A DNA stretch of 64,000 bases, taken from Felis catus (Eukaryota). Of the stretch, positions 37,800 through 63,221 are shown piece by piece (position 1 is the first letter of the stretch; each line of letters starts with the position of its first letter). A program made the translations under genes and the position numbers. Below the pieces are notes generated by a model. That model worked only from the letters and a program-made list of their open reading frames with translations, searched no databases and was not told the origin of the DNA. The stretch spans positions 124,001 to 188,000 of the forward strand of contig NC_058369.1 of the NCBI RefSeq assembly GCF_018350175.1, given 5' to 3'.

Positions 37800-38950
37800 C
37801 CCAGACACTGCCTCACCCCACCCTCCCGCCTACCCACTGCCGGCCGGGCCGCCCTTTCCGCTCGCTCAGAACCGCCGGAGAAGGGAATCCGCCTCCGTCC
37901 TCCCTTCCCGGGCCAAAGGACCCCGCCCCGGCCCGCCCCCGGCCCCACCCCGTGCTGGGACGTCATAAAAAAGACCCCAAAAGCTCAGCGGCCCGTGCCG
38001 GGACGACGCAGCCCAACCCTGCCCGCCTCCTCGCGCACAGGCGTCCTGGATGCTAGTCCGAGAGGGGGGCGGCGGCGGCCTCCCGGGGGTCGAAAGCTCC
38101 AAGGCGCCTGCGCGCTCGGCCCCCTCCCTCCCTCCCTCCCTCCCCGCGGTTGCGCCTGCGCGCTCGGCGGGCCGGGGGCGGGGACTCCATTTCCCGGCGT
38201 GCCCCGCGGGCGGGCGCGCAGGTGCGGTCCGGGCCCGGCCGCCGCGCGCAGGCGCAGTCGAGGGGAGGGGGGGGGGGCCGGCGGCGGCGCGCAGGCGCAG
38301 CGTGGGGCGGGGCGCGCGGGTCAGGCCGAGGCGAGCGCCGGGCGGGCGGCGGTGCCAGAGCGAGTGGAGCGCTCAGGGGCCCCGAGCGGCGGCGGCGGCG
38401 GCGGCGGCGGTGGCGTAGAAGAGGAAGGCGGCGGCGGCGGCCCCAGCCCCGGCGCCTCCCCGGCCGGCGCGCGGCCCGGCCCGTCCCGTGCCTCCGCGGC
38501 GGCCCCACGGCCCAGCGCGCCCCCGACCCCGGGCCCCGCCGCCGCCGCCGCCGCCATGGCCCGGCCGCTGGTGCCCAGCTCGCAGAAGGCTCTGCTGCTC
38601 GAGCTCAAGGGGCTGCAGGAGGAGCCGGTGGAGGGCTTCCGGGTGACCCTGGTGGACGAGGGCGACCTGTACAACTGGGAGGTGGCCATCTTCGGGCCCC
38701 CCAACACCTACTACGAGGGCGGCTACTTCAAGGTGAGCCCGCGGCTCGCAGTCCCGGTTCCCACCCGACCTCTGTGCCCGCGGCGGTCCCCGTCTCCCTC
38801 GGTCTAGCTAGTGGTTCTCTCGGCCACCCCTTCCGTCCCTGGAAGCAGCTCCAGGCCCCCGCCTTCCCGGCCGGTCTGCCGGATCCCCGGAGAGAGGGCT
38901 CGGGGCGCTCCCTGTTTGTTTGGGTGTGGGGCTCGTGCTTACCTCAGCCT
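37800..38950 (+). promoter_or_regulatory. CDC34: CDC34 CpG island/promoter
   Basis: Very CpG-dense; NRF1-like GCGCCTGCGC/GCGCAGGCGC motifs, GC boxes, (GGC)n 5'UTR tract. Confidence 0.85.
38556..38732 (+). CDS. CDC34: CDC34 (UBE2R1) exon 1
   Basis: Kozak gccgccATGG; MARPLVPSSQKALLLELKGLQEEPVEGFRVTLVDEGDLYNWEVAIFGPPNTYYEGGYFK; donor AAG|GTGAG; 177 nt. Confidence 0.97.
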
Positions 38951-41538
38951 CTGGCGGACCCGGGCCCTCAGCTGCCTTCCCCGCCCCCTGCCCGGAGGAG
39001 ACAAAGAGCCTCCCCAGACCTAGCAAGCTCTATTGTTGGGGAGCACGGGGCTGGGGAAGGGAGGGAGGGAGGCCAGACTGGGGGGGCTGCTCCGCCACTT
39101 GTTTGGGTTCCAACAAAGGCTCAGATGGGGCCTTGCCAGCTGGGGCCTGCTTGGAAAGCAGCCACTCTTCCCGATAGCAGCCGGCCAGGCCCACTTGGCT
39201 TCCTCTAGAGCTTTATGTAAGTTGTTCTCTAGGGAACGTTGAGGCAAGACTGTGGCATCACTGCCACTCTCCACTTTGTCCCTGGGAGCCACACCTCAGA
39301 GAGCAACCCCACGGACCCAGGACCCGGGACCCTGGCCTCAAACCTGGGGCCCCTCTCTTGCCGCAACTTGCTTTTCTCGGGTTTCGCCGAGCAGGTGTCC
39401 TTTTGGGGCTCAAATCTCACGTCTGGGTCGTTTTCTCTGTCCCCTGTGATAGTTTCATCCCGGGCAGTTCTTTTCTGGGAGCAGGGAGGGGGTGCTGGCC
39501 CTGGCACTGGCTGTGTTTCGCGCTAGTGGGACAGAAGATCTGAGCCAGAACCCAGGCAGCTTTCTTGATCTCACCATTTGAGCCCCCACGTGGCCTTGGA
39601 GGGACCCTTGTCAGATTGTAGGGCTTTGCTCTTTGAGCCAGAGGGATGGGGCCAGGGGTCTGCCTGCATGAGAGGTGGGGAAAGGGCCCTCAGCCTGGGA
39701 ACACCCTCCCCCAGCCCTGCCAGGTTGGAGGGGGGGTGGCGGGCAGAAACCACAGCTAGGCCAGGCTGTGGGGGAGGGGCGGGTGATACTCCCAGGACAG
39801 ATGTCTGCGTTTGCACTTTTGGCTCCTGTTTTAGCTGAGCCTGCTCAGTGGCTGTGAGGGAGCAGCCTGGTCTGCTGGGGGTGAGTCCTGAGTTGAGATT
39901 CCCCTGGTGTTGGGGTGGGATGGGGGGAGGACTGTGGACCACTCCCGCCTGAGTTGTGCATCAGCAATCCGGCCTCTTGCACGCGGGGACTGGATTTGGG
40001 GTTGATCACCTAATGGTCCAACTAGATCCCTCCCCCAGCCTCCTTTGTGTGCTTCAGGCTGGAGGGGTGGGAGCTCCATTCAGAGCCGGAGGTGGAGTCC
40101 CACCCTGAGGCAACAGCGAGACTAAGAGACTAAGTGAGCTCACAGATCTGGAAGGAAAGGATGTGGGCTTCTGACTCTTGCTCACTAACTGGTTGCAGGG
40201 GATCCTCCACACTAGGGTTGGGGGAATTGTCTCGTCTTTCTGGAGAAGAATGGACTGGGGGTGGGGCCCTGCCAGATTCGAACACATCTGCCATAGGTTG
40301 TGTTGTGTTGTGTCCTCAGAGAAGCCGGCGGGGGACCCGGGGTGGTTTTGGCACCCACCCTGATCCTCCTGTCGAGGCGTGACTGGGTGGGGAGACCCTC
40401 TGCAGCAGGTGTGGAACAGCCAGACTGGGAAGTGCCTGGCGGCCACCGCCGCTTCCCAGCCACTTCCTGCGGCGCCTTCCTTGTCCTTCATGGGCCATGG
40501 TGAGCATTTGGGCAACGCAGTGTACTCAAGGGGGTGCCAGAGAGACGCGGTTCAACAACCTCCTCCCAGCTTGCTTGCTGTGTGTCCTTGGGCAAGGTAC
40601 TTTCCTTCTCTGAGCCTCAGTTTGCTCAGTAGTGAAGGCATCTCTGGGGACGCTTGAGACAAGATGAGGTGGGACTTGCTGGGTGTTTGAGAACAGCTGT
40701 CCTCGGGGCCATCGCTTAGAAACCTGTAGGGCAGGTTCTGAGCTCCAGGTTTGCTCTGCAGTCACCAGTAAGTTACCTGCCTCCCAGGCCTCAGCACAAT
40801 CACCCAGGAACAGAGGGACTTCTAAATGCCCCTGTGCCCCTGCCCAGGAGGGTGACTCTCCAGAGATGGGCCTGGGAAGCTCCAGCAGAGGAGCCCAGCT
40901 TTGGCTCCCAGCACACTGGCTCGCCCGGGAGAGCCTGGAGCACCACCAGGACCCTAGGCCAGACATCCCCATGTCTGGGACTGGGGCTCAAGCCGCAAAC
41001 GAAGCTCCTTCACCTGCTGAGGCCTCGGCAGGCAGCCCTCCCCAGTCTGCCCCAGGACCTTCCTGTCTGCCTTCCTGGCCCCCCAGGATGGATGCTTGTG
41101 GGCAGAGAGCCCATCCGTCCAGCGCTGACTCATCTCCTCCCACAGAGCCCAGCCCACAGAGGTGTCGGGAATGATTGCCGAGTGAACACACATCTATTTT
41201 TAACCTTCCCCACAGCCTGGAAACTGAGGCCTAGGAGTCGCCGCCATGCTGGGGGTGCACAGCTCCCTGGGGCCTGGCTCCTGGCCCCTCCCACGGGCCT
41301 GGGCCAAGAATGGCCTTGGAGTTGGCCTTCAGCAGCAGGAGGGGGGCCAGGGTCTGCTCAGGCCACCCCAAAGAGTCCGGGGGGGGGGGTCTGTGAGGGG
41401 TGACCAGCAGGGTCCAGGCAGTCCTCCTGCAACAGGGGGGTCTGTCCTGGCCAGTGTCCTTGTTTGTGTGTTCGTGGGCACAGTCCCTGAGCAGTGGCCA
41501 GCACTGGCTGAGCTTTTCTGCTCTCTGCCCCTCCCCAG

Positions 41539-41625
41539 GCACGCCTCAAGTTCCCTATCGACTACCCCTACTCCCCGCCAGCCTTCCGGTTCCTGACCAA
41601 GATGTGGCATCCCAACATCTACGAG
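41539..41625 (+). CDS. CDC34: CDC34 exon 2
   Basis: ARLKFPIDYPYSPPAFRFLTKMWHPNIYE; 87 nt, canonical sites. Confidence 0.97.
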
Positions 41626-41733
41626 GTGAGCCCACCGGGCAGGCCCCTCCCGGCTCCCCTGTAGTGGGGAGGGCACTGCGCTGCCTGGTGGCAGTGCTGT
41701 GGGCGCTGACCCCTCTCTCCTGTCCTCACACAG

Positions 41734-41831
41734 ACGGGGGATGTGTGCATCTCCATTCTCCACCCCCCAGTTGATGATCCCCAGAGTGGGGAGCTGCCCT
41801 CAGAGCGCTGGAACCCTACGCAGAACGTCAG
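41734..41831 (+). CDS. CDC34: CDC34 exon 3 (catalytic Cys and acidic loop)
   Basis: TGDVCISILHPPVDDPQSGELPSERWNPTQNV-R; 98 nt. Confidence 0.97.
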
Positions 41832-42613
41832 GTGAGGCTGGGCCAGACCCTGCGGGAGGGACTGGTCAGCACGTGGACCCCTGGCCCCCACAGCATTCCT
41901 AACCTTGCTGCTTCGGGGCCTCTTCAGGGCCATGACTTGCCAGAGTACCGTGGCATCTGTCCAAACTGGCCTCCCACCAGGATACTGGGGGCCCCAAAGA
42001 CCCCAGGACCAATTCTGCTAGCCTCTCATTTCTTGGTGCCCCCTGCCCCATCCACCATGAGGAACAGCCTCTGGGAGTCTCGGGTCTGTGTCTTCCCTCC
42101 CATGGCCCCTCTGCCTGCCCCTGGGATCTCCCCTCCGTCTCAGGGCTGAGCTGCTCATCCTGAGTGGGCTAGCCTCCCTGCCTCGCAGCCTGCACGTCTT
42201 TAGTCCAGCCCGAACTATTGTAGAAGTTGGTGGCACAGAGGGACCTGTTTGCCCGCAGGATGCCTCGGGGATAGGGACATGTGGGACAAAGGTGGTCCTG
42301 GCTTCAGCTGCTCCCACGTCATGTCGTCCTGGGAGCTGGGCGGGCAGGTGGATGGACGGGGGGGGGGGGGGGGGGGGGGGTCGGACCCTGCTGTTCTTGG
42401 GGCCTGAGACAAAAAGGGACGACGAGAAGTCCAGTCAGATGTCATCTGCAGGGTTGGGAGGCTGTGAGGGTCCCCAGGCAGGTGCTGGCTTCAGTGTGTC
42501 CGGAAGCTCCCCAGTGACGCTTGGGCCTGGGCGTAGCCTGAGAGCCCAGCTCCTAGGTGGGTGGCGTGGGCCAAAAACGCCCTGCACCTGTTGACTCCCT
42601 ACTTCCCCCCCAG

Positions 42614-42748
42614 GACCATCCTGCTGAGCGTCATCTCCCTCCTCAACGAACCTAACACCTTCTCGCCGGCGAACGTGGATGCCTCTGTGATGTACAGGAA
42701 GTGGAAAGAGAGCAAAGGCAAGGACCGGGAGTACACGGACATCATCAG
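42614..42748 (+). CDS. CDC34: CDC34 exon 4
   Basis: [45 protein letters not shown]; 135 nt. Confidence 0.97.
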
Positions 42749-43929
42749 GTGAGGAGGGCTTCTGTGCAGGCCCACACACCTCCAGCTTGCTCATGGCCAG
42801 CAGTCCCAGTAGGGACTTGCAGCCCTGGGGAGGAGCCAGCCAGCCTGAAGCCTACACCTTGGTTCTTCTGCTGGTCTCCTTGCCCTCAACCTTGCCCCCC
42901 TTTTTTTTTTTTTAAAGAAAATGGGTGTCCTCTTTCTCTGTCGCACGGTGAGGTGCCCCAGTGTGTGTCGCAGATGTGTAGCTTAATGCCTGTGAGATGT
43001 GTAACACGGTGTGTGCGTTCAGAGCACCTGTGGTGCACGTGTGTCGTGCACAGACCTGGTGGCACATACATACAGAAGCCCCTGAGTGGTGACCGCCAGG
43101 CTTTAACAAGGGTTCGCCGCGGTTTCTTTGCTTTGTAACTAAAATAGCAGAGACTCTCCCGGTCTTCCGTCATGCCCCCGCCCCTCTCTCCTCCCTCCTG
43201 GGGAGCCTCTCCCCTCCCTCCTGGGGAGCCTCTCGCAAGCATTGCGGGGCCTCCTGTCTGCATTTTGGCCCCTGACGCCTATCTATAAACGCTCCGGGAC
43301 CACGGTCCTTCAGGTACCTGCTCCTGACATCAACTCTGTTTTCCTACTTTCTTTTGGGGGGGAACATACGTTTTGTGTACTACTGAGGCCTGGTTTATGT
43401 CACGTTGTATCTTTTCTGCTCAGTGGTTTCTTGCTGTGAACATCATTGACATTTGTAATTTTGAAGCTTGGAATCATTTCCTAAAGGCAGAAAATGATCA
43501 TGATACTAGCGCATTTAGAAAATTGCTATCTTTTCTAGAAAATAAGTTTTGTCTGGTTAGGAAAGCGATGCATCACTTGGGGATTGGCCAGGACTAATCC
43601 TCCACCTGGCGGGTGGTCATTTCCAGTGCTCTCCCCTTCTGAATAAACAGGTGAGCACCCTTGGAAAGGGAACTTTGCACAGGATGGACACTCAGCGGGC
43701 AGGTGCGGGACCAGGGTGGGAACCTGGTCTAAGGCCCTGGGTGTACACGCTGTCCACTTAGGGCCTAGAGCTGCTTGTGCTTGACCCCCTTTTCTCTCTC
43801 CCTGGATTTGTGTGAGCTGCTCTGTGTCTGTTGTCCATTGTTACTTTTTAATGCGGGTTTATTGACTCATTTCAGGACAGACTTAACCCTTTGTTAGGTT
43901 TTTCCTAGATACCCTTTCAGTTTGTCATT

Positions 43930-44035
43930 TTTTAAGTTTTATTTAGGTAATCTCTACTCCCAACGTGGGGCTCGAACTCATGACCCCAAGATCAAACATG
44001 CTTTTCCGACCCTGCCAGTCAGGCACCACACCCCC
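43930..44035 (-). mobile_element. Short CanSINE (antisense) in CDC34 intron 4
   Basis: tttttaagttttatttaggtaatctctactcccaacgtggggctcgaactcatgacc. Confidence 0.8.
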
Positions 44036-44044
44036 CCATCATTT

Positions 44045-44940
44045 ACCTTTTAATTAAAGAAAATGGGTAAGTCACATGCACACCTACATTAGGACCCAGC
44101 CACTTGAGGTCTGAGTATTTACCCAAGAGAAACGGGGCGCTTGTCCACACCGGTACGCACACGAATGTTCAGAACAGTCTCGATTTGCCAAAGCTGTCAA
44201 CGGCCCAGGCGTACAGCCGCAGGCAAGGAGGGAGCAGGCCGGGGCCTGTCCACGTAGCCTCAGAAAGCACGTTGGTGTCTGTCAGAGAGGCAGAATGTAA
44301 AAGACACAGCAGAACCTCCGGGGGTGAGGGGTATGTTTGCGACCTCGCTTGTGGGGCAGCGTCTCAGGACATATGTGGGTCAAAACTCACCGCCATGCAC
44401 TTTAAGTTGCCACAGTTCACACAGACGAAGCCCCAGAAACAACTGTGTGCTGAGAAGGCAACGTGTTTGTGATAGAGAAACACACACATCCTGAGAGAAA
44501 CGAAAAGGAAGCCCCGTAACACTAACACCTGACAGTTTCTGTGTAGCCTTCCAGACACCCACGTCCACCACCACCCTGCCCTGGCAGCCGCTGATATGCG
44601 TGCTAGAAACGTGGAGAACCGCGCCGTGCACGCGCACGGGCCTCACACGCTGTTCCGCATCGTGTGCCAGAGCTCTTTGCCGCCTCGTGCTTCACGCTGG
44701 AGAGACGCGGGTGTCAGGGGTCTACAGCCCGTAGCTGCAGGCCGTTTCTGTTGGTTTTGGTTCTCTTTCCTCTGAGTAAAATTGTGCCGGTTTTCTTCCG
44801 TAGACCTGGCCCGTTTTTTGCTGCTTCCGTGGTATTTTACGTGAGCAGAATTTTCTGAACGATTTCTGCGGTGTTGCACGTGTGACCTGAGTGCATCAGA
44901 GCCCCCCCAAGCCACACACGCGGCCCCAGGGTGACCCATG
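44045..44940. mobile_element. Old L1 (L1M) 3' fragments in CDC34 intron 4, GC-shifted
   Basis: gacccagccacttgaggtctgagtatttacccaagagaaac...gtccacac...cgaatgttc matches the L1M ORF2 end/3'UTR pattern. Confidence 0.6.
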
Positions 44941-45861
44941 CGCATGTAGGGCAGCCCTTCCCCCGTTTGTTTGTCCCCCGTTGTCGTCCCAGGATAGCTG
45001 TCCCCCGATGCCGGGCGGGGTCACAGCCTTGGGTCTGTGGAAGTGAGGAGGCGCTGAGCGGGGTGTCTGCCACGAGTGATGCCGGGTGCTCTGCAGGCCT
45101 CCCGGTGCTGCTGCGCGGGACCCTCGTGGGGTCTCGGGGCGAGGGCGCTCGGCTCGGCTCCGTGGCGGGGGGTCCTGCCCACATGGCCTGTTCTTCGCCC
45201 CAGTTTTTCCCAGCACCTCCCACGTGGTGCCAAAATTAAAACCAGACTGTTTTTATCCCTGAAGACTCCCCGTGGGCTGGCTCACATGCGCCCACGTGAG
45301 CAAGGCTGTGACGGGCGCTTCTGCCCGCCTGTCCCCCCGCCCCCGCCAAGTGTGTTCCCCGCACAACGGGGGCAGAGCCGGCTGACTTGGAGGGCCCCCC
45401 CCCCCAGTGGGGTGATGCTGCAGGGTGTCCGTCTGGGGTGTCATCTGTGCTGGGACGTGGGCTCTCGGTGTCCACCCTGCCACAGCTCATGGGGGTGCCA
45501 CGCCGAGTCCCCAGGAGAGCTGTCTGCTCTGTCCTGGGCGTGACCCATGGCGTCTGTCACCTCCTGGGCCCGCGTTCCCTTGTCCCCATTTCCCCCTGGC
45601 GTTGGCCCTCTTCATCCGCTCCGCCCCTGTCCAGCCGGCACAGGCAGCTGGAGATCTGGTCCAGCCCCGGTCCCGTCGCCCCTGGTGGCTGATGTCTGCC
45701 GGCTTGAACCGCAGTAGTGGCTTCACCCTCCCACGGGGTGCCGCCGGTCTCCATGATTCCTCTCTGGTGGCTCAAGGGGCCCTCCCCTGTGGCGTCTGTG
45801 CTCCTGCCTGCAGGGCCCCGAGGAGACAGAGCGGTGACCTGTGGGCCCGTGTCTCCCGCAG

Positions 45862-46075
45862 GAAGCAGGTCCTGGGGACCAAGGTGGACGCAGAGCGGGA
45901 CGGCGTGAAGGTGCCCACCACGCTGGCTGAGTACTGTGTGAAGACCAAGGCGCCAGCGCCCGACGAGGGCTCAGACCTCTTCTACGACGACTACTACGAG
46001 GACGGCGAGCCCGAGGCTGAGGCCGACAGCTGCTTTGGGGACGACGAGGACGACTCCGGCAACGAGGAGTCCTGA
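45862..46075 (+). CDS. CDC34: CDC34 exon 5 (acidic tail, stop)
   Basis: KQVLGTKVDAERDGVKVPTTLAEYCVKTKAPAPDEGSDLFYDDYYED...DSGNEES*; spliced CDS 711 nt = 236 aa. Confidence 0.97.
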
Positions 46076-46404: not shown

Positions 46405-47636
46405 ACGACTTTATGAGAAGCTACAGAACCAACTGTCCTTGGCCTTCCCGAAGGACCGCAGAGAGCGGTGGGCCACCAGGTGCCCCTTCGGGCCAGGTCA
46501 CGGCCCCAGATTCTTGGGGCCAGCTGGTCTGCTGGCGGGGCCGGCCATCAGGCCCCAGGCGGCCCCTCTGTGGCCGCAGCACCCCCAAGGAGTCCTGTGT
46601 GCTGGTGTCACCCAGGCCCGGTGGCTTCATTTCAGTGTAACTGTTAAGTCCAGAGTGGCCTGGGCTCAGGGTCAGATGGCATCAGGACTGAGGTCCCCCC
46701 TTGGGTCAGACGAGCACACGCCCAGCCTGACCAGTCACTGCGCCTGGGGCTCAGACAACCCCACACAGGTGGGGGACGGGCCAGAGGGGCAGGTACATCC
46801 AGGGTGCACACAGATCCCCACGGCGGCCTGCACACGCCTTTCCCGGTTTGCCCTCGCGGTCTGGTGGTGTTTTAACCTGAATGATGTTTCTCCATTAAAA
46901 CGTGGAAGGTTTCACTCTTCATCTCTGGCTTTTCTTAAACCCGGAGGGAAGTGCAGGGTGGGGAGGGGCCCCTCTGGACTCAAGCGGTGTTCTCGGCGGG
47001 ACTGTGGCGGCCACACCTGTTCCCGCTCCTCCTGCACCTAGTTTGGGCCTCTGAGCTCTGTGGTGTATCACCAGCGACCCAGCCTCCGGAGTGGGAGCCT
47101 GGGCGTGTGACCCTCGCCCGTGTGCTGAGCAGGTACAGGCAGGGCCAGGCCAGTGGCTCATGTTTATAACCTCCACAGGGCGCCGAGGCCAGGCTGGGCA
47201 CTCCCTTCACCTCAGCCTAGAGGCATTTCCGGGGGGCGGTGTGGGGGGCTGGCAGCCTGCACGAGAAGACCTTGGTGGGTGGAGGTCTGGAAGCGGACGG
47301 CACGGTGGGGTGGCCCGTCCCCGCCCCACCCCGTCCGGGTGTCCTCACGGCACGGCGGCACGGGCTCCGGCGGGAGGACCCCGGGAGCAAGGCCGCTTCA
47401 CCACTCGGGGGTCACACGCACCACTTCTGCACAGGGCTGGACACGGGCGTGCACCCACCCAGACCCGAGGGGAGGGGCGCGGACCCCACGTCTCCATGGG
47501 AATCGTGTTCCCTTCAGGCCGTCCCCCACACAACTGCCAAGGAAGCTTCTGCACAGAGATCTGACTGATACCTGAGGCCTTGGGGTTCACATCCCATAAC
47601 CTATCTGCAAAACAGAGATCATAATTAGGGTTGCCC

Positions 47637-48875: not shown

Positions 48876-49079
48876 GCTAGAGCTGCAAGAAGAAACCGTC
48901 ACTTGCCAGGCTCAGCTTCCACTGAGTGGCCCTCGTTCTCAGGTGTGCTCCTGTCACCTTGGGCCCACCCAGGCTGACAGGCTAATCACGGCAAGTCCAG
49001 AGGGTGAGAGCTGCTTTGGAGAATCCCCACGGAAGAGGTTCCAGACCATGGTCTTCATTGAGCTGACTTCCTGAGCACC

Positions 49080-50340
49080 ACGGGAGCCCGTAGCCCCTCT
49101 GCTGGCCTTGGGGGCCTGTGTGCAGGTGAGTGGGAGCCAGAGCAAGATGGGGACGGCCCCTGACTGTCAACTTGAACCTCTCAGGAAACAGGGACTTGGG
49201 GCCACTGCTAGGCTAGTAACATCAGGTGTCTGGGGCCTCGGAGCTGAGGTAGCAACGTCACAGGAGGGGGTGGGGCCCCTGCCCCTAACCTGGCTCTCTC
49301 CCCAGGGGCAACACCCTTGAGATTCACATCACCACAGGGTCTGCCCCCCACTCCTCGCCCATACTGGTCTCGCTGCAGAAAGCTAGAGCCCGCCTGTGCA
49401 GAGCTAGGGGGCAGTCCTCATGCGCTCAGGACTGTGCCTCCCACCTAGCCACAGGGGCAGAGCTGACCCACGAGGGTGGCAAAGTCCACACCAGAGGAAC
49501 CTGGGGCCTGCATGCCATGGTGAAGCCCCCAGATAAACCCACCCTGGAGCCAGCACCAAAGACCCCAGACTACACTGGTTCGGGTAACCAAAAGGCCCCT
49601 GTTGCCTCCTGTAATGCAGAGTCTGGGAAGACACAAGCGTCAGGCACAGCTGGATCCCAGTGCTCACAAGAGGTCCTCACGAACCTGCCGCCTCTCAGCC
49701 GTGGGATCATGAAGGCTTTCTCTCCCGGCGGCAAGGATGGCTGCCCCTCGGGTCCCATGGAAAGCGCTTGTTTCTAGTGCCGCTGGACCCAGCCTAGGTT
49801 TCATGCTGGCCTCTGGACAAATCACTGGTTGAGGCAGAGCCCACGCACGGGGCAAGGCCGGAGCCTCTGACGAGGGGAACCCAGCCAGGGGCTTGGCGTT
49901 TTGGGACACACGCCTTCTGGAGTTCGGGGCAGCGGTGGGAACAGGGGAAGACTGGCCAGACAGGAGCCAGGAGGGGGCTGCAGGCTGCGGGGCGTCCCCA
50001 GGACACAAGAGCAGCCTTATGCGCAGCATCAGGGCCACGGCCCAGCACCCAGAGTACAACTGGCCTCCAGTATGGAGAACACCTTCAAGATGTTCAAGGT
50101 GCTGGGGGCAGGTTGGAGGGGTAACAGCTTGCATCCCAGGACCCCCTCCCCCAGCTTTCCCATCCTCCACTGCTCTCCTCCCCCCATCCCCACTCACCTA
50201 CCCCTTCCTGTCACCTGTAGCAGGACCAGAGGCTCCTGGCCTTGCCCCAGTGTCCACAGGAGCCCAGTGCAACATAGCAGGCTGGGTGCTGACCCTCCGG
50301 GGTGGGCCCCCACCAGGGCGCTTCGGGGCCGGGCCTGCAA
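49080..50340 (+). pseudogene. GZMM: Granzyme M pseudogene remnant (exons 1-4 partly recognisable)
   Basis: Syntenic slot between CDC34 and BSG. Exon 1 49080-49125 (caccACG in place of ATG; LLALGA; CAG|GTGAGT); exon 2 from 49306 (GNTLEIHITTGSAPHSSPILVSLQKARARLC vs recalled ..QIIGGRE..PHSRPYM.SLQ....HLC); exon 3 about 49964-50098 (IRATAQHPEYN, frameshift, MENTFKMFK vs LENDLALLQ); exon 4 about 50221-50340 (TGAQCNIAGWVLTLRGG vs AGTRCSMAGWGLTHQGG). Confidence 0.85.
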
Positions 50341-50354
50341 ATGCTGAACATCCA

Positions 50355-50830
50355 GAGTGTGTAATTCAGTGGGTGTTCGTACATTCAGCGGGTTGTGTGA
50401 CCAGCACCTCTGGAACATTCCATCTCCCCGGAAAGCAACTCTGTCCCCACACAGTCACGCCCCACCGCCCAGCCCCTCCCCCACGAACCCCCTTCCGTCC
50501 GTGGATGAACCTGTTCTGGACGTTTCACACACATGGACTCACACCCCCGTGTGGCACCTCGCGTCTGGTTCCCTCCCTGAGCGTCGTGTGTTCAGGGTCT
50601 GTCCGTGGGGCAGCGGGGGTGGGCGCCTGGCTCCTGCTCGCACCTGAGGGGCATGAACCTTTCGCAGTGGACGTCCACCTTTTGTGTGTGTCCATCCACC
50701 TGCCGATGGACATTGGGGCTGTTTCATTGGCTGCTGTGAACTGCCTTGAAGCACTTGTCTGCCCACACGCGCCCATTAGGACCGAGGTCCCCACTGGTTT
50801 TGCAGGAAGCTATGGTTTTTATTGTTCTTC
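50355..50830 (-). mobile_element. Old L1M 3'UTR (antisense), GC-shifted, abutting the GZMM exon 4 remnant
   Basis: aattcagtgg...gttgtgtgaccagcacctct...gaacattccatc...cctgttctggacgtttcac...atccacctgccgatggacattggggctgtttc. Confidence 0.7.
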
Positions 50831-51169
50831 AACAGACATCCTCAGGTGAGACTGCATTTAGAGGTGTGCTCCCAGGCACCAAGCAGCCTCCTCTTCCTTC
50901 GCGCCGAGGCCTCGAGCCTCGTCAGGGGTCTGGCATGGCTCCATCTGGCTGCAGATTAGGGGAGGCCTGCCTGCTGCTGTCCCGGGAGAAGGCTTATCTC
51001 CCCGCCTGGCTGTTCCTTCCTGGCCCAGCAGGGCTCCTCCCCCCGCCCCCCCCCCCCCAACTGACCCCCAGGTGAACGGGAGGCCACCAACAGGAATAAG
51101 CAGGTGCCCCACCCTGCCTGCCTGGGGACTCAGCACCCGCCCAAGGTGGTCTCTGATGCTTTGATGACA

Positions 51170-51440
51170 TAGTGTGATCTAGGGCATCAAAGCCACACAG
51201 CAGGAACTCAGAACAATGGGACTCTATCTTCCCACATCCTGGGGCCAAAAGTCAGAGATCGAGGTGGGCTGGGCTCCCCGCCTCCAAGGGCTCCAGCGGG
51301 GAGGGTCCTTCCTGCCTCCTCCAGCTCCTGGAGGCCCCAGGTCTCCCTTGCTTGTGGCTGTGTCAATCCCGAGTCTGCCCCCATGATCACATGGCCCCTG
51401 CTCTGGGTCTGTGCCAGAATAACCCTTTCGTCCGGATGTC
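51170..51440 (-). mobile_element. MLT1-like LTR
   Basis: caaagccacacacagcaggaactcagaacaatgg...gggtccttcctgcctcctccagctcctggaggccccagg, closely similar to 27640-27760. Confidence 0.65.
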
Positions 51441-51769
51441 AGCCGTAGGATAGGGCCTGCCCTGCCCGCTGCCGGCCCTCTTCTCAGGCCCCTCTCCCCT
51501 GGGCGGCTCTGATGTCTCCCTAGAACACAACAGAGGAACGGGCCGCCCTGGCTCAAACCCCTCCCAGGGCTCCCTAACACCAGAATAAGACCTGCCCTGT
51601 CCTCCTTCAGTCACTGCCTGGAGGGGGTGGATTTCAAAGCTCCCCCTTTCGGGAAAATGCACATAAAAAACTAAGCCGAAACATTTTAGCAGTGGACAGA
51701 TGGGTAACAGAATGAAAGTCTGATGTCATCTCCTCATCTATGAGTTTGAGGGTTGGTTTTTGTTTTGTT

Positions 51770-54899: not shown

Positions 54900-55700
54900 C
54901 TGAGGAAACAGAGGCGGGGCCCAGCCCAGCCCTCGCAGGCCCCGCCCCCGTTTCCTAGCAACGAAACCACGCCCCTAGCCCGTGAGGCGTGGCCGCCAGC
55001 GTCACGTGGCACCGCCGCAGCGCCCGCTCGGGCCGACGCGTGCGTATGTGCGTCCGCGCGCATGCGCAGGGGGCGGCTGGCGTGCCGTGCGCGCCCCCGC
55101 CCCGCCCCGCCCCGCGACGTTGCCCTGCGCGCGCGCGCCCGGCCCCTCCCCGTTCTTATAGTGCCGCGGGCGGCGGTTGGTGGCGGGGACGGCACGGACG
55201 GGGGCGACATGGCGGTGCGGCAGCTCGTGGTCCTGGCGCTGGCGCTGCTGAGCGCCGAGGGCGGCTCGGGAGCAGGTGAGGGTCCTGCCCGGCGCGGGTG
55301 GAGGCTCAGCCGCGGCAGCGGGGGCCCGCCAGGCGGCCCTGCAGGTGGAGTCCCTAAACCCCGGCGGCCGGGGAACGCGAGGGGTCCGAGGGCTGGCCTG
55401 ACCCCTGGGTGACGGGACCTGGGGTGGGGTCTGGAGGCGGAGCCCCGCCCTTCCGCCGTCCCCGCGTCCGGCGGCGGAGGCCCGGGCCGGAGTCCAGGAG
55501 CGGCCCCCTCTCAACCGGCGGGGTCCGCGCCCGCGGCGTGCCAGTGCCACCGCGGGGTGCATTGGCGCGGCCCCGGGATCCCGCGAGCCCTGGCGAAGCC
55601 TGTGCGGCCTGGAGCGGTGGCCGCCTCCACAGGCCCTCACGTGGACGCTGGAACCAAGGACTGAGGAATGCCCGCCCCTGAAGCCGGTGGGCTGTCTGGC
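54900..55700 (+). promoter_or_regulatory. BSG: BSG CpG island/promoter
   Basis: X-box GTTTCCTAGCAAC 54950-54962, E-box TCACGTGG near 55001, NRF1-like GCGCATGCGCA 55058-55068, GC boxes, TTATA near 55156. Confidence 0.85.
55209..55275 (+). CDS. BSG: BSG (basigin/CD147) exon 1, signal peptide
   Basis: MAVRQLVVLALALLSAEGGSGA-G, donor G|GTGAGG; 67 nt. Confidence 0.93.
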
Positions 55701-57954
55701 ACAGGAAGGGATTGTCATTCTTCCCAGGATTTAGGTCCCATGTCTGGCTCTGGGTAGGCACCTGCCCCCTGGTGTTTGCCCAAACGCTGAAACCTCCGGC
55801 AGGAAGCCAGCACGCTCTGCTTCCTTTGGTTTTGTCTGATTCCAGGCCACAGAATGAGGTGGCAGCTGGTCCACCCTCCTCTAACAGGAGTGGAAACTGA
55901 GGCCCAGGGCGGGAGGGGACGTGTTCCAAGGTCACCGTGAGGTCGCTTTGGCAGCCCAGTTCTGGGCAGGATGTGTTGAGAGGGTGTTTTTAACGGAGTC
56001 ACGAACAGCACTTATTTCTGGGAGGTCTGCACCGTGTAGAGAACGCTCAGGGGAAAATGGATCAAAGCGTATTTTTCAGGGGAAAGCGGGACAGCCTCTC
56101 TTTTGCCTGATAGAAATTTTCTTCCTTGATCGAGACTTCCCGTTTTGTTCTGGGTTAAAGATTTATAGTGATGGGCATGTAGGGAACAAAGTGCAGAGAA
56201 GGGTCTGGGGAGGCAGGAGTGCAGGGTCACGGTGTCTGCTGGGGGTGGGGGGCAGGAGGAGCTGCCTCTTGTGGGAGCTTCACCCACTTACTCCTGACCC
56301 ACTTCAGGAGCTCAATTGGCCTCTTTCCTCTTCCTTATGATCAGAACGGCCGTTCATTGAACGCCTCTGGGCAAGGCCTTGGCGCCTGGCGTGCACATGG
56401 CTCACTGCCCGCCAGCGGGTCCCTGGCCGCTGGAGCCCTTCAGGAATAGCTCTCCCTGGCGGGAGGTGGCCACGGACGGCCCCGGGGACGGCGGCGGGGG
56501 GGCGGGGGTAAGGAAGTCTCTGCGTTTGCTCCTCCCGTCAGGGGGATGCCCTGGGTTAGCGCCTTTTCACCTGTTTCCTGGGACCAGGCACCGAAGCTGT
56601 AGCTGGAAGCCCTGCGTCTCGCGTAGGGTGTGTGTGCTGGGGAGTCTAGGTGTGTCTGTGCCGTGTCTGAATCCACCTGGGACCTTTTTACTTTGTCACC
56701 TTTCCCGGGGACCCTCACAAATACCATGCGTCCCTTTTCTGCTGGGACGTGTGAATTAGTGACCGTGTTCACCTCCCGTGGCTGGGTCAGCTAGCTCCCC
56801 AGAAACTTGTTTCAGGAGCTCTGCCAGGGGGACCCCTGCTCTCCCTGGGACTGTCCAGGGCCCCGCTGTCCTGGTGCACCAGGTTGGGAGGGCACACATG
56901 GGCACCAGGTTGCTAGCTGGGTCCTGCGGGCTGGTGATTTGGCCCGAGCCTCAGGTGAAGGGAGCAGGAGCGGCCTCCTGGCCAGATGGAGGGGAGGGGA
57001 GGGTGGAGAGGCCCAGAACCCACCCCTGGCATCCCAGAAATGTTCTCTTGCTCCTCCTACCTGAGTAGAGCTGCTGAGTTGGGTGGGGAGGAGGGTGGGT
57101 GCCGGGAGCCTCAGTCTCATCCCCAGCTCGTGGGCTGTTTCCCATAAGGCCTGCCTGGCCCTGTGCCCTGCCCAGCAGCCTGAGGTCAGGGAGGAGGGGT
57201 GGCTGTTTTTAGATGAAGGTGACTTTACTTGAGAACGTGGGTCACAGTCACATGGCCAAAATGGGGGGGGGGGTCAAATGTTCTCCCTTGTTCCTCCTTC
57301 CTGTCCCTGTGGCCCTTAGGGTCCCTGTGAATTCCGCGGGTGCCCTCCCCCCTCAATCTGCTGGGCCAGGTGGGGCGTGTCTCAGTTCCCTGCTGTGTGC
57401 TACCCTCAGGTCAGGGCAGGGGTGTCAGCCTGTGGTTCCTCGGACGAGGGAGGAGGGAGGCAGGGTGGGGGAAGCTGTGCCCCGGCCCTCACTGCTCCCG
57501 CTGGTGGAAGTGGCCCTCAGGCCTGTGGCCTTTGGGCGACTTCTTTCTCTCCCAGGGAGGCAGGGCGCGGCTGGGTAAGATCGGACTGACCTTTCTAGCA
57601 GCCTCTGGGTGAGGGGACAAGGGCACAGACGCGAGGCTAGGAGGAGAGCATTCTCTGGCTTCACTTCCTGCCCTGACTCACCCTCCCGGCTCTGCACCGG
57701 CTGTTGGGTTTTGCAATCTTGGGAAATCTTGACTCCTGAGAAATGTGGGTTGCCGGGAGGTGATCCTTCTGAAGAGACAGCACAGCCACAGAGGGCTCAG
57801 GGCAGCCACAGAGCCCCAGCTTCACCCTTCTGCCGGCTTGGGATTGTGCCTGTTTTGAGTCCTGTGAATGGGCTTTGGGCCACCCCAGGGGCAGGCATGA
57901 AGGTCCACCTTGCCCCAGAGCAGTAGCCCGCGCCCTCCGATACGGACTTGAAGC

Positions 57955-58175
57955 CGTAAGTGTGTGCACGCACGTGTCCCTATGTGTGCTTTGGGTGTGT
58001 GTCTGCACACACGTGTATACGTCTGTACTCACGTGTCGTGTGTATGTGTCTGAACCCATGTGTCCACGCGTGCATACACGTGCTGTGTGTGTGTGCACGC
58101 CCGTGACCACCCCCGTGTGTGTGCACGCGTGCGTGTGTGTGTGGTGCTGTGTGCGTGTGCTGCATGTGCGTGCAC
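57955..58175 (+). repeat. Alternating purine-pyrimidine (TG/CA/CG) tract in BSG intron 1
   Basis: gtgtgtgcacgcacgtgt... cryptic dinucleotide repeat of about 220 bp. Confidence 0.85.
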
Positions 58176-58664
58176 GCGCCAAGGGTGGGTAGTGCCTAGG
58201 GCAGCGGAGAGGAGCCTCCCTGTAGCTCCTGTCTGGCTGCTGCTGAGCTGTCTGCCTCTTCCCCTGCCCGTCTAGAGTCCTGAGACCTTGTGTCCTGCCC
58301 TCCGCTGGCCTCAGGTCCTGCCTCTTCCACACAAAGAGGCCACCGCTCCCCAGACTGGAAGTGCCTGCCTGTGGCCAGTCTGTAGCAGGGCAGGGGAGGG
58401 GAGGGTTCAGTGATCTCTCTCCAGTAAAGCTTGCCTGCTGCCCTTTGGGTCAGGTTAAATTTTCTTAATGACCGACCCGGTCTCTGGACGGGAGAGCCTG
58501 CTTCTTGTCGCTGCTTCCTTCGCACTGTGGCTTTTTGAACACAGTCTCCCATTCCGATTTTTCACCCGGTTTTGTGCTGCAGGCGTCTCCCTGCAGACTG
58601 GATGGAAAAGAAGCTTATTGCCAATAGCCCCGGGATGGATCTCTGTGCCCAGATCATCTGGGCG

Positions 58665-58945
58665 TGGTCTTCTAGAAGGGACGCCTCTGGGGCATATGTC
58701 ACCGGGGAGGCGGGGAGGCGAGCTGGGGACAATGTGGAATTCCAGGATGATGGCACCAGAGCGTCCCTGTGACACCTGCCCTGAGCCCCGGGATGGGGCT
58801 CTGGCGTGCACAAGGATGGGTCTGCCGCTTCACCGATGCCCAGTGTCTGGTGTGGAGGGAAGTGGGGGGGGTCCTCCTGGTTCGTTCTCATAGCTTCATG
58901 CCCCTCACCTTCGACCCTGGGTCCCCTTGAGCGCCTGACGGTCTC
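58665..58945 (+). pseudogene. Possible degenerate remnant of the retina-specific BSG Ig0 exon
   Basis: Position in intron 1 fits; RPCDTCPEPRDGAL resembles recalled human GPNDTCSQLWDGAR; GAATTCCAG (EFQ vs EIQ) upstream in another frame; similarity is weak and judged by eye. Confidence 0.35.
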
Positions 58946-59034
58946 TCTCCCTGAACTCTGGTCCCTGGAGGGCAGCCCTCCCTGGCTCAAGCCTCCTTGC
59001 CTCAGCAGGCTTCTTACCGTCTGGTTCTAAGTGA

Positions 59035-60433
59035 TTTTTTTTTTTAATGTTTTTAGTATTTATTTTTAAGACAGAGCGTGAGTGGGGGAGGGGCAGAGAG
59101 AGGAAGACACAATCAGAAGCGGGCTCCAGGCTCTGAGCTGTCAGCACAGAGCCTGACGCGGGGCTGGAACTCCAGGACTGTGAGATCATGAGCTGAGCTG
59201 AAGTCAGACGCCTAACCGACTGAGCCACCCAGGCGCCCCTGGTTCTAAGTGATTTTTGATTCCTAAAGAGAACATCTCAAGCCAGTGGTGAGGTTTGCCT
59301 AGTTGGAAATTGAACAGAAGGGCCAGGCCCTGGGAGTCCACCAGCAGTGCCTTGGTTGTGCCTACAGAGAGGCTTAGTGGCGAGTGGGGGTGCGCTCTTG
59401 ACCTTCCGGAAGAAGGTGCCGTTCAGGACGGGGCAGCTGGAGCCAGCAGGCCCTGCCCCGGTGGGAGGTGCCCACCTCGGATGGCCCTGCCTTGATGGGA
59501 GGAGGGTTGGGGGGTTCTGCAGGGGCCTCCAGGGAATGGCGGCTGGGACTGTGCTAGATTCACTTGTTTATTTATTTGTTTATTTATTTTTGAGAGAGTA
59601 TGTGAGCAGGGGAGGGGCAGAGGGAGAAGAACTTTTTTTTTTTTTTATGTTTATTTTGAGAGAGAGAAAATCCCAAGCAGGCTCTGCTCTGTCAGCACAG
59701 AGCCCGACATGGGGCTCGAACTCCTCTGAGCTGTGCAAGTATGACCTCAGGCAAAATCAGAAGTCAGATGCTTACCTGACTGAATCACCCAGGTACCCCC
59801 AGTAGATTTATCTTTTTTTTTTTCTTTTAATTTTTTTTTCTTAATGTTTACTTATTCTGAGAGTGAGAGCATGAGCAGGGGAGGGGCAGAAAGAGGGAAA
59901 GAGAGAATCCCAAGTAGGCTCTGTGTTGTCAGCGCAGACTCCTGTGTGGTGTTTCATTTCCCCAACTGTGAGACCTGAGCTGAAATCAAAAGTCAGAGGC
60001 TTAACTGACTGAGCCACCCAGGCGCCCTTAGACTTATCTTTTTTTTTTTTTAACATTTTTTTTTTTTTAACATTTACTCATTATTGAGAGACAGACACAG
60101 GATGTGAGCAGGGCAGGGCAGGGGTAGAGAGAGAGGGAGACACAGAATCTGAAGCAAGTTCCAGGCTCCAGGCTGTCAGCACAGAGCCCGACGCGGGGCT
60201 CGAACTCCTGAACCATGAGATCATGACCTGAGTCGAAGTCAGTCGCCCAACCGATGGAGCCACCCAGGTACCCCAGATTTATCTTTTAAAAGAGGAATTT
60301 CGGAGGTGCCTGGGGGTGCTGAGTCAGTTAAGAGTCCGACTCTTGGTTTCAGCTCAGGTCATGATCTCGCGGTGTGTGAGTTCAAGCCCCGCATCAGGCT
60401 CCATGCTGACAGTGTGGAGCCTGCTTGGGATAT

Positions 60434-60475
<42 letters not shown>

Positions 60476-60735
60476 CCTCCCCCACTCACTCTCTCTCTCT
60501 CTCATAAATAAATAAAACTTAAAAAAAATTAGAAAATAAAAAAAAGAGTCCAACTTCAGCTCAGGTCATGATCTCACAGCTCGTGAGTTCGAGCCCCGCG
60601 TCGGGCTCTGCGCTGACAGCTCGGAGCCTGGATCCTGCTTCTCATTCTGTGTCTCCCTCTCTCTCTGCCCCTCCCCCACTCACAGTCTGTCTGTCTTTCT
60701 CAAAAATAAATAAACATTAAAAAAAAAACTTTTTT
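59035..60735. mobile_element. Cluster of about 7 CanSINEs in BSG intron 1
   Basis: Minus copies 59040-59238 (TSD ctggttctaagtgattttt), about 59570-59800 (nested), 59810-60028, 60040-60274; plus copies 60302-60545 and 60548-60735. Confidence 0.9.
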
Positions 60736-61130
60736 AACACAAAAGGAATTTCAGGTCTGTGCTGGGCTGGACCCAGCAGTCCATGTCTTGGCCAGGTTCT
60801 GGGGCCCTTATTGGCTTTTGTTTCCAACACCTGAGGCCCAGCTGGTTAGAATGTTTCCCGACAGAACCTTCATCGAGCCCTCTTCTCTGCAGCAGTAGCT
60901 CTGCAGACCCCAGGCTCCTTTAACTCCACAGAAGGTGTCCTTCCAGAAGGAGCCAGGTGTGATTCAGGACTCCTCTCCTCTGGGCCGGCTCAGGACAGTG
61001 TGGATGGCCTGGGGTGTCCGGGCCATTGCACGCTTGCCACAGGGACAAGTGGGCAGGTGGTTCAGGGTCCTGGGTTTGGGTCCTTTCTTTCCCTGACCTT
61101 TTGCCAATGTTCTCTCCTGTGGCCACCTAG

Positions 61131-61287
61131 GGAGCGGGATCTGGACATCTGTAGATGATGCTGGCTCCAAAACACGCCTTACCTGTGCCTTGAACCACAG
61201 CACCACTGAGATCATCGGCCACCGCTGGGTGAAGGCGGGCAAGGTGCTGAAGGAAGACGCGCTGCCCGACCTGAAGACAGAGTATGA
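61131..61287 (+). CDS. BSG: BSG Ig1 exon A
   Basis: SGIWTSVDDAGSKTRLTCALNHSTTEIIGHRWVKAGKVLKEDALPDLKTEY-E; 157 nt. Confidence 0.95.
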
Positions 61288-62005
61288 GTGAGTGGGGCCT
61301 GCCTCAGGGCCCGCAAACACACCGGGCCCCATCTCAGCCTGCAGGCGTCACCCCCCAGGCCCCTTCCTGCCCCTGCTCCCACACCGTGTTGCTGCTCACG
61401 GCCTCTCTGGTCAATCAGAACTGGGGTTGTAGTCGGCGGGCCTGCTTTGGACAGACGTTAGACACAAGCTCTGCTCAGATCCCTCAGTGTGAGAAGCCCA
61501 GGCTTCTGGGGTCTGAGGTGGCCAAGGCCTGGCATCCAGCGAGGGTCCCCTGGCTGCTGAATGTAAGGCTGGACTCCAAGACCCTTCCCTTCTTTCTCCG
61601 GGGTGCCGGCTGAGGAGGGCAGGCAGACCTGGGGTCTCCCAGCCCGGAATCCCCAAGCACCTGGCTCCCTGAGGCCTTGGGACCTCTGTGCCACCCTGCT
61701 CTGAAGCCTTGGTCTTAGTCGATGCCTGAGCCAGCTCCAGAACCAGAGTCTGGTTTCAGGGGTGACTGGGCACCGGGTCAGTCAGTGGGGGGGGCCGGTT
61801 CCATCTGCCACCCATGCCTCCTCGTCTCTCCCTGACGGGAAGCGGGCAGCCTGTGCCCTCGTGCCCTGCAGGGACTCCCGAGTGTGGCCTTGCTCTGCCC
61901 CCGGTGGGAGTCCCCTGCTGCTCGCAGAGGTTTGAACTTCACCGAGGACAGGATGGCGTCCGTCCCCACCACGAGCCCTGCTCATTGCTGCGCGTCCGTT
62001 TGCAG

Positions 62006-62088
62006 GGTGGACCTGGATGACCGCTCTGGTGAGTACTGGTGCGTCTTCCTCCCAGAGCAAGCAGGCAAGACCAGCATCGAGGTGAAGG
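62006..62088 (+). CDS. BSG: BSG Ig1 exon B
   Basis: VDLDDRSGEYWCVFLPEQAGKTSIEVK-G; 83 nt. Confidence 0.95.
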
Positions 62089-62209
62089 GTGAGCTCTGGG
62101 GGCCCTCGGGGGCGTCTGGGGCGGGGGCCGGAAAGACCCCCCAGAGAGGGACAGCTCCTCCTCCAGGGTCATGGGCTCAGGCTCCTGCCTTGCTCGGTTA
62201 CCCCTGTAG

Positions 62210-62346
62210 GGCTCCCCAACATCAAGGCCGTGAAGAAGTCCGAGCATGCCACCGAGAGGGAGTCGGTCGTGCTAGGCTGCAAGTCTGACTCCTTCCCCCC
62301 GGTCAGCGACTGGGTGTGGTACAAGATGGAAAGCTCTGGTGACCAG
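62210..62346 (+). CDS. BSG: BSG Ig2 exon A
   Basis: LPNIKAVKKSEHATERESVVLGCKSDSFPPVSDWVWYKMESSGDQ; 137 nt. Confidence 0.95.
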
Positions 62347-62422
62347 GTGAGGCCCACGCCTGCCGGGGGAAGAGCTGGCCTCCGCCCCGGCCCCAGCCCC
62401 TACAAAGTCCGCCCACCCCCAG

Positions 62423-62699
62423 GTCATCAGCAACAGCTCCCAGAACAAATTCTTCGTGGTGTCCTCGGAGACGAAGACGGAACTGCACATCTTGAGCCTG
62501 GACCTGGAGACGGACCCCGGCAGGTACGCCTGCAACGGCACCAACTCGGAGGGCACCAGCCAGGCCGTTGTCACGCTGCGCGTGCGAAACCGCTTTGCCG
62601 CCCTCTGGCCGTTCCTGGGCATCGTGGCCGAGGTGCTGGTGCTGGTCACTGTGATCTTCATCTATGAGAAGCGACGGAAGCCGGACGAGGTCCTGGACG
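62423..62699 (+). CDS. BSG: BSG Ig2 exon B plus transmembrane helix
   Basis: VISNSSQNKFFVVSSE...YACNGTN...LRVRNRFAALWPFLGIVAEVLVLVTVIFIYEKRRKPDEVLD; conserved intramembrane Glu; 277 nt. Confidence 0.97.
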
Positions 62700-63221
62700 G
62701 TGAGCCCACAGGCCCTTTGCTCGCTGTGCGGGGGGGGGGGGGGAGGTGGGGGCAGGCCACTGTCCGGGAGTGCGGGACAGAGGAGGGCGCTGTGGGGTCA
62801 AACGGGTCCCCGGCTGGAGGTCTGCTCGCCTGTTGCCTGGTCTGCCCCGCTGTCTTCCCTCACTCGGCTGCAGGTGGGTGACCTCCGAGGGGAGTGGCTG
62901 TCCTCTTGGCTGCTCTGCCCCTGCCCATGGCGGCTGCTGAGGGCCCAAGGGTTGTAGGCACCAAGCATGCTCTTGACTTTGCACGTGACGGAGCTCAGGA
63001 AAGCTGAGCTTGGCCCCTGCCTGGCTCCTGCGGGCCGAGTTTGTGGGGAGCGGGCAGGGCTCCCAGGCACCCCTTGGGCCATGACCCCAGACAGCTCATT
63101 TTGAGGATGCACGTGCTGAGGGCAGCGCCCAGCAGGACCGGTGCCAGCCCACGAGGGGCCTTGTCCCGGACACTTCCTGATGGCCTGTCCTCTCTCTACA
63201 TGTGGCCGCGCGTCTGCACAG

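What the first reader, a model, noticed from the sequence alone, without database searches (positions are those of the whole stretch)
49080..50340. Granzyme M is a decayed unitary pseudogene in this felid
Seen: in the slot where other mammals carry GZMM, four collinear exon remnants are present with multiple lesions. These are ATG replaced by ACG in a cacc context; frameshifts at the exon 1/2 boundary and in exon 3; the mature N-terminus IIGG reading ITTG; the catalytic-His motif reduced to ASHLA (the Cys of AAHC is gone); and the catalytic Asp (END) reading ENT. Exon 4 stops near 50340 and I found no GDSGGP (catalytic Ser) exon anywhere up to BSG. Knowledge: GZMM is the NK-cell Met-ase of the Met-ase/elastase locus. 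Inference: an old, lineage-level loss of an innate cytotoxic protease; I do not know whether it has been published for cats.
Basis: partly seen in the sequence, partly recalled or inferred. Interest (0 to 1): 0.72.

Follow-up and report, generated by a model that had tools for sequence, protein, structure and literature searches.

The report
Granzyme M lost in cat lineage
This cat-family genome keeps only broken remains of the killer-cell enzyme gene granzyme M at its usual place, and the damage is so heavy that the gene likely died before cats and dogs split, so these veterinary model animals would lack one of the five granzymes humans have.

Summary
Confirmed and extended. Between CDC34 and BSG lie collinear remnants of GZMM exons 2, 3 and 4 (63, 44 and 68 bits against a null of at most 27) and a weaker exon 1. 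They fit granzyme M best of 240 proteases. There is no ATG, 10 indels in 343 aligned bases, and His and Asp motifs are damaged. A deletion joins exon 4 at about 50356-50365 to a truncated old repeat; the Ser exon is not found downstream (power 76-99 of 100). No intact copy was found in the genome. Decay at conserved sites is 30 of 120, against 0-6% in intact relatives, far older than crown cats on recalled rates. None of 41 rows named granzyme M is a carnivoran, and an Ensembl table lists no orthologue for cat or dog (PMC6964862 S2), so the loss is likely Carnivora-wide. PRTN3 and AZU1 in the same locus also look broken. Ten paper searches listed no description of the loss; the scan had not noted it on other DNA. 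No reads or relatives' DNA were available.

The parts
38556..46075 (+). CDC34, upstream flanking gene (context)
   Evidence: Exon translations with recalled CDC34 motifs from MARP at 38556 to EES* at 46075; CDC34 and BSG flank GZMM in human, mouse and opossum (bioRxiv 10.1101/2022.06.02.494303)
49080..49125 (+). GZMM exon 1 remnant: ACG in place of the start codon (inferred), hydrophobic LLALGA stretch out of frame with it, donor GTGAGT kept
   Evidence: 19.9 bits; 5 of 159 tiles as high
49306..49456 (+). GZMM exon 2 remnant: frame break at its start, IIGG read as ITTG, 6-nt deletion, about 8-nt insertion after the Cys codon, AAHC read as ASHL, donor lost
   Evidence: (63.0 bits over 49307-49425)
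50002..50098 (+). GZMM exon 3 remnant: first about 16 codons not alignable with confidence (weak match at 49975-49998), 1-nt gap near 50060, catalytic Asp codon read as Thr (50081-50083), donor GT at 50099
   Evidence: (44.0 bits over 50012-50098)
50221..50365 (+). GZMM exon 4 remnant, 5' two thirds: about 7 codons missing at the start, 13-nt deletion, four 1-nt gaps, ends at the CN of RMCNN
   Evidence: (68.4 bits)
50356..50365 (.). Deletion junction: 10 bases that align both to the end of the exon 4 remnant and to the start of the repeat
50356..50739 (.). Old interspersed repeat (L1M-type 3' end; family name recalled), lacking about 45 terminal bases that sister copies share
   Evidence: 39 other copies listed at 74-88% identity, the longest starting at 50356; terminal stretch seen in 3 of 5 aligned sister copies, partly in a fourth
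55209..62700 (+). BSG, downstream flanking gene (context; end approximate)
   Evidence: Start MAVRQ at 55209 and transmembrane exon near 62600 by recalled motifs

Best explanation
This is the single, broken copy of the granzyme M gene at its ancestral place between CDC34 and BSG; it cannot encode the protease, and it was likely inactivated before the cat and dog lineages split. Shown: orthology by position and sequence; frameshifts in exons 1-4; loss of the start codon, the exon 2 donor and the His and Asp motifs; absence of the 3' part of exon 4 and of exon 5. Inferred: after a first inactivating hit (which one cannot be told) the gene decayed neutrally, with CpG sites decaying fastest; a deletion with about 10 bases of overlap then or earlier removed the end of exon 4, the Ser exon and the end of an older downstream repeat. 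NK and T cells of this lineage would then have no Met-ase, the job likely being covered by other granzymes.
For: Family: the top 25 of 240 stored single-domain proteases by frameshift-aware score are all GZMM (horse 221.5; best non-GZMM 170; PRSS57 median 135, CFD median 116; shuffled horse at most 118 of 60). Single copy: the 1.4-kb DNA matches only itself; camel GZMM finds nothing above 61% identity among 150 matches and its C-terminal 75 aa nothing above 56% among 88, whereas intact laurasiatherian orthologues are 71-78% identical to donkey GZMM, horse 97%. Missing 3' end: simulated decayed exon 5 detected in 99 of 100 at 0.3 and 76 of 100 at 0.45 substitutions per site; the same profile finds the last exons of ELANE, PRSS57 and CFD. 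Neutral decay: 30 of 120 conserved non-degenerate sites differ, against 0-9 of about 160 in the 20 laurasiatherian proteins that built the profile; corrected distance 0.17-0.23 at non-CpG sites (95% limits about 0.07-0.39) and 0.52-0.59 at CpG-prone sites. Recalled genome-wide neutral branch lengths are about 0.10 from the cat-dog split to cat and about 0.02 or less within crown cats. Other carnivorans: 41 of 120 listed rows are named granzyme M (38 mammals, among them bats, horses, rhino, camel, pigs, hippo, whale), none a carnivoran or pangolin, although the remnant was in the query; none among listed members of 20 clusters; carnivoran CFD and PRSS57 are plentiful in the same database. Ensembl orthologue table: GZMM N/A for dog and cat, present in the other 8 of 10 species (PMC6964862 S2).
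Against: No DNA of another carnivoran was read, so no shared lesion is shown. One search lists only the best 120 of 3483 hits, up to 284 aa, and also names no hedgehog, shrew, rabbit or squirrel GZMM; 8 of 152 stored GZMM proteins fall under that list's cut-off and 11 exceed its length limit. N/A in the Ensembl table also marks annotation gaps (EPX is N/A for dog and cow there). The rate calibration is recalled and genome-wide, while this GC-rich chromosome end may evolve faster; misalignment in exon 3 can inflate the count; the control proteins helped build the profile, so their values run low. A 338-codon stop-free frame covers exons 3-4 (1 of 500 shuffles).
Confidence: 0.65

Rival explanations
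1. Same dead gene, but lost on the feliform or cat stem only; dogs lost it separately or merely lack an annotation.
For: The lower limit of the non-CpG distance (0.07-0.13) fits a loss after the cat-dog split if the local rate is high. One search misses other mammal groups too. Felids and canids lost different inflammasome sensors separately (PMC8411117 passages).
Against: Point estimates 0.17-0.23 reach or exceed the whole recalled cat branch. No caniform, hyena, mongoose or pangolin GZMM was listed, and dog is N/A.
Confidence: 0.28
2. The protease is dead but part of the locus has been reused: the 338-codon stop-free frame at 49833-50846, or a non-coding transcript, is functional.
For: 1 of 500 shuffles of 49000-51500 gives such a frame; it is one of 4 frames of at least 300 codons in the window. 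Exon 1 and exon 3 donors are kept.
Against: The frame runs through intron 3 and into the repeat, mixes in-frame and out-of-frame GZMM pieces, has no Pfam match at E up to 1, and 0 of 3 exact look-ups found it in the protein collection. Substitutions follow CpG decay.
Confidence: 0.04
3. Assembly error, or an intact GZMM that moved elsewhere or is missing from this assembly.
For: No raw reads were examined; genome searches score only the best candidates.
Against: Ten indels and 30 substitutions enriched at CpG sites in 343 bases, beside CDC34, BSG, ELANE and CFD exons that read cleanly, are not an error pattern. No copy elsewhere. No felid GZMM.
Confidence: 0.03

Closest known systems
Granzyme M (GZMM, Met-ase; human PDB 2zgc; donkey XP_044607685, camel XP_010964907)
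   Same: Position between CDC34 and BSG, exon order, intron places after the His and Asp exons, GNT..E propeptide and VSLQK segment of laurasiatherian type.
   Different: No start codon, frameshifts in all four remnants, His motif without Cys, Asp read as Thr, S1-pocket and Ser exons absent.
Immune gene losses in Carnivora (MLKL, AIM2; NLRP1 in Felidae; NAIP/NLRC4 in Canidae; PMC8411117 passages)
   Same: Old loss of a cell-death effector in the carnivoran lineage.
   Different: GZMM is a killer-cell granule protease. That paper names granzyme once, and only granzyme B.
Reported absence of GZMM in Xenopus, snake, lizard, flycatcher (PMC4646688 section 9; bioRxiv 2022.06.02.494303)
   Same: GZMM can be missing from a Met-ase locus.
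   Different: Those are annotation-level absences in non-mammals; neither text that I saw treats this locus in cat or dog.

Membership tests
GZMM orthologue | Lies between CDC34 and BSG on the same strand | tested here: met
GZMM orthologue | Closer to GZMM than to PRSS57, CFD or other granule proteases | tested here: met
   Top 25 of 240 are GZMM; 221.5 against 170
GZMM orthologue | Collinear exons with the family's intron positions | tested here: met
   Exons 2-4 in order, exon 3 donor directly after the LLK-equivalent codon; exon 1 weak
Active granzyme M | Start codon, signal peptide and open frame | tested here: not met
   ACG at 49080; the ATG at 49048 meets TGA at 49072; 10 gaps in 343 bases
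Active granzyme M | His-Asp-Ser triad and mature IIGG end | tested here: not met
   ITTG, ASHL, ENT; no Ser exon downstream
Active granzyme M | Met-ase S1 pocket residues at the end of exon 4 and in exon 5 | tested here: not met
   Segments absent; 3' exon 4 best 21.2 bits, 5 of 100 shuffles as high, power 55-88 of 100
Unitary pseudogene | No functional copy elsewhere in the genome | tested here: met
   within the limits of an assembly and of best-candidate scoring
Unitary pseudogene | Lesions fixed and shared by relatives, not assembly-specific | not tested
   The one run search listed no runs, so no reads were laid
Unitary pseudogene | Neutral decay of the former coding sequence | tested here: met
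Carnivora-wide loss | Shared inactivating lesion in feliforms and caniforms | not testable with these tools
   Only indirect signs

The most novel reading that the evidence does not exclude
Early carnivorans (perhaps with pangolins) lost half of the Met-ase protease locus: granzyme M, proteinase 3 and azurocidin are all dead, leaving only neutrophil elastase, PRSS57 and factor D. Cats, dogs and ferrets would then be natural triple knock-outs for an NK-cell granzyme, the main ANCA autoantigen and heparin-binding protein, adding to their known loss of MLKL and inflammasome parts.
Probability: 0.35. Interest if true: 0.72.

Novelty: new member of a known kind. Interest (0 to 1): 0.52.

Why it matters
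GZMM is kept from alligators to humans and is high in NK, NKT, gamma-delta and CD8 T cells (PMC9977805 passages). Its loss in cats, and likely dogs, bears on how these animals and ferrets serve as models of NK-cell therapy and viral disease, and gives a natural test of whether GZMM is redundant. It extends the known paring of cell-death genes in Carnivora to the granule proteases, more so if the broken PRTN3 and AZU1 next door are shared. The kind of event, loss of a dispensable immune gene, is ordinary, and orthologue databases already show the gap without comment.

Tried and rejected
Remnant exon 2 alone against the PDB: no protease hit at E up to 10; the three stop-free frames have no Pfam match, so the remnant is invisible without orthologues. 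Two homologue searches and one representative search returned CFD, PRSS57 and multi-domain proteins but no GZMM; one search did. That profile A3/A4 ranks human GZMM first is not counted as evidence, because I picked its rows to resemble GZMM. Sequencing runs: with the filter Hi-C none was listed; this says nothing on existence. Orthologous mammalian DNA: the metagenome scan kept 79 loci, all single long matches at 27-37% identity, not GZMM exons; the viral scan found 0. Atlas look-ups gave only generic trypsin-fold clusters. An exon-5-like stretch upstream at 46509-46544 (26.6 bits, 1 of 200 shuffles) was considered as a moved Ser exon and set aside: it does not extend, reads W at the second Gly, and in 260 kb of real DNA unrelated places score 23-30. 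Insertion of the repeat into exon 4 was rejected because the exon does not resume behind it and the repeat lacks its own end. Papers: searches listed none that describes GZMM loss in cats or carnivorans (listings and abstract starts only); no GZMM in the held supplements of PMC2644713, PMC7671337, PMC6386725, PMC5865188. Subscription papers, bioRxiv supplements, figures and TOGA or Zoonomia loss tables were not seen and may hold it.

Full report
Setting. The window is G000 contig C2, 124001-188000. The genome is a felid: its factor D exon 2 is 100% identical to Felis, Lynx, Panthera and Herpailurus proteins. CDC34 runs 38556-46075 and BSG starts at 55209, both on + (gene names from recalled motifs). 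GZMM is flanked by these genes in human, mouse and opossum (bioRxiv 10.1101/2022.06.02.494303, parts 1 and 2 of 3 read).

Observation. To test them I needed orthologues; one search supplied them (41 of 120 rows named granzyme M), and 33 were aligned as A5. A nucleotide profile from the 20 laurasiatherian rows scores exon 2 at 63.0 bits, exon 3 at 44.0 and the 5' part of exon 4 at 68.4, with nulls of at most 27. Exon 1 scores about 20, which 5 of 159 tiles reach, so it rests on place and on its GTGAGT donor. A frameshift-aware score over 240 stored single-domain proteases puts GZMM in the top 25 places, horse first at 221.5, best non-GZMM 170. Short GZMM isoforms lacking exon 2 score as low as 128.

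Anatomy. Exon 1 (49080-49125) starts with ACG, and its hydrophobic stretch is out of frame with it; the only near ATG (49048) meets TGA at 49072. Exon 2 (from 49306) starts one base short, reads ITTG, lacks two codons, carries about 8 extra bases after the Cys codon, reads ASHL at the His, and has no GT donor. Exon 3 has a 1-nt gap and Thr at the catalytic Asp. From 50356 the DNA is an interspersed repeat with 39 other listed copies at 74-88% identity (L1M type by recall). Three of five aligned sister copies share about 45 terminal bases that this copy lacks. The simplest reading is one deletion that joined exon 4 to the inside of an older downstream repeat through about 10 overlapping bases. 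Exon 5 is not found between 50366 and 55200 (17.8 bits; 52 of 100 shuffles as high), with power 99 of 100 at the observed decay and 76 of 100 at heavier decay.

No other copy. The DNA matches only itself. Camel GZMM and its C-terminal part find paralogues at up to 61% and 56% identity, below the 71-78% seen among intact laurasiatherian orthologues. These searches score only the best candidates, and the assembly could lack a piece.

Age. Of 120 conserved non-degenerate sites 30 differ, against 0-9 of about 160 in the intact proteins that built the profile. Corrected distances are 0.17-0.23 at non-CpG and 0.52-0.59 at CpG-prone sites across six settings, the pattern of neutral decay. With recalled genome-wide branch lengths (about 0.10 from the cat-dog split, 0.02 or less within crown cats) the loss is far older than living cats and fits the carnivoran stem; a faster local rate would make it younger. 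Two indirect lines agree. No carnivoran or pangolin is among the granzyme M rows or the listed members of 20 clusters, while carnivoran CFD and PRSS57 are common. The Ensembl table in PMC6964862 S2 (part 2 of 3 read) gives N/A for dog and cat and values for the other eight species. Against this: one search shows 120 of 3483 hits and misses other mammal groups too, 8 of 152 stored GZMM fall under its cut-off, and N/A also marks annotation gaps. No reads or relatives' DNA were obtained, so no shared lesion is shown.

Neighbours. About 190-200 kb further on, PRTN3 survives as collinear broken exons 2-4 (C2 371537-372804, with a 13-codon deletion across the first Cys and several frameshifts), and its last exon finds nothing better than ELANE at 52% in the genome. 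AZU1 shows as a damaged last exon at C2 366088-366216 (heparin-binding protein, E 3.8e-9); its other exons were not found, but I had no AZU1 protein to search with. ELANE and CFD exons read cleanly; for PRSS57 only exon 2 was read in full.

Mechanism and odds. Dead single-copy GZMM: about 0.93. Within that, loss before the cat-dog split 0.65, feliform or cat-stem loss 0.28. Reuse of the 338-codon stop-free frame 0.04 (1 of 500 shuffles; no Pfam match; 0 of 3 exact look-ups). Artefact or hidden copy 0.03.

Comparison and novelty. It is a GZMM orthologue and a unitary pseudogene, not an active granzyme. It resembles the published Carnivora losses of MLKL and inflammasome sensors (PMC8411117, passages). 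PMC4646688 (passages, section 9, supplement passages) lists only chymase-locus proteins for dog and cat. PMC7924851 and PMC5742104 (passages) do not treat it. Ten searches and four supplement searches listed no description of the loss; unseen papers and genome-wide loss tables may hold it. The scan had no earlier GZMM note. Verdict: real, apparently undescribed, of a familiar kind; interest 0.52, higher if the three-gene loss proves Carnivora-wide.

Noticed in passing
L033:3538-4805 (G000 C2 371537-372804): PRTN3 (proteinase 3) is present only as broken exons 2-4 with a 13-codon deletion and several frameshifts; no last exon was found here or elsewhere in the genome.
   Followed up: partly
L127:8088-8216 (G000 C2 366088-366216): AZU1 (azurocidin) last-exon remnant with Trp at a Cys position and a frame break at its start; other exons not found with ELANE as the probe.
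   Followed up: partly
window 46509-46544: A 12-codon stretch (DSWGQLVCWRGR) after a CCCCAG resembles the start of GZMM exon 5, 2.5 kb upstream of exon 1; 1 of 200 shuffles, but at background level in real DNA.
   Followed up: yes
window 49833-50846: A 338-codon stop-free frame spans exon 3, intron 3, exon 4 and the repeat; 1 of 500 shuffles, no family match.
   Followed up: partly
window 50356-50739 and G000 C2 first 5 Mb: All 39 other listed copies of this repeat lie in the first 5 Mb of C2, which suggests a shared GC shift at this chromosome end or an effect of how candidates were picked.
   Followed up: no
proteins P0011, P0332, P0250: Golden mole and sugar glider gene models carry an extra, unnamed trypsin-like domain directly before PRSS57; it may be a little-known seventh gene of the locus.
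   Followed up: no
protein P0374 (donkey GZMM isoform X2): Reads GNSGG where horse has GDSGG beside the catalytic Ser.
   Followed up: no
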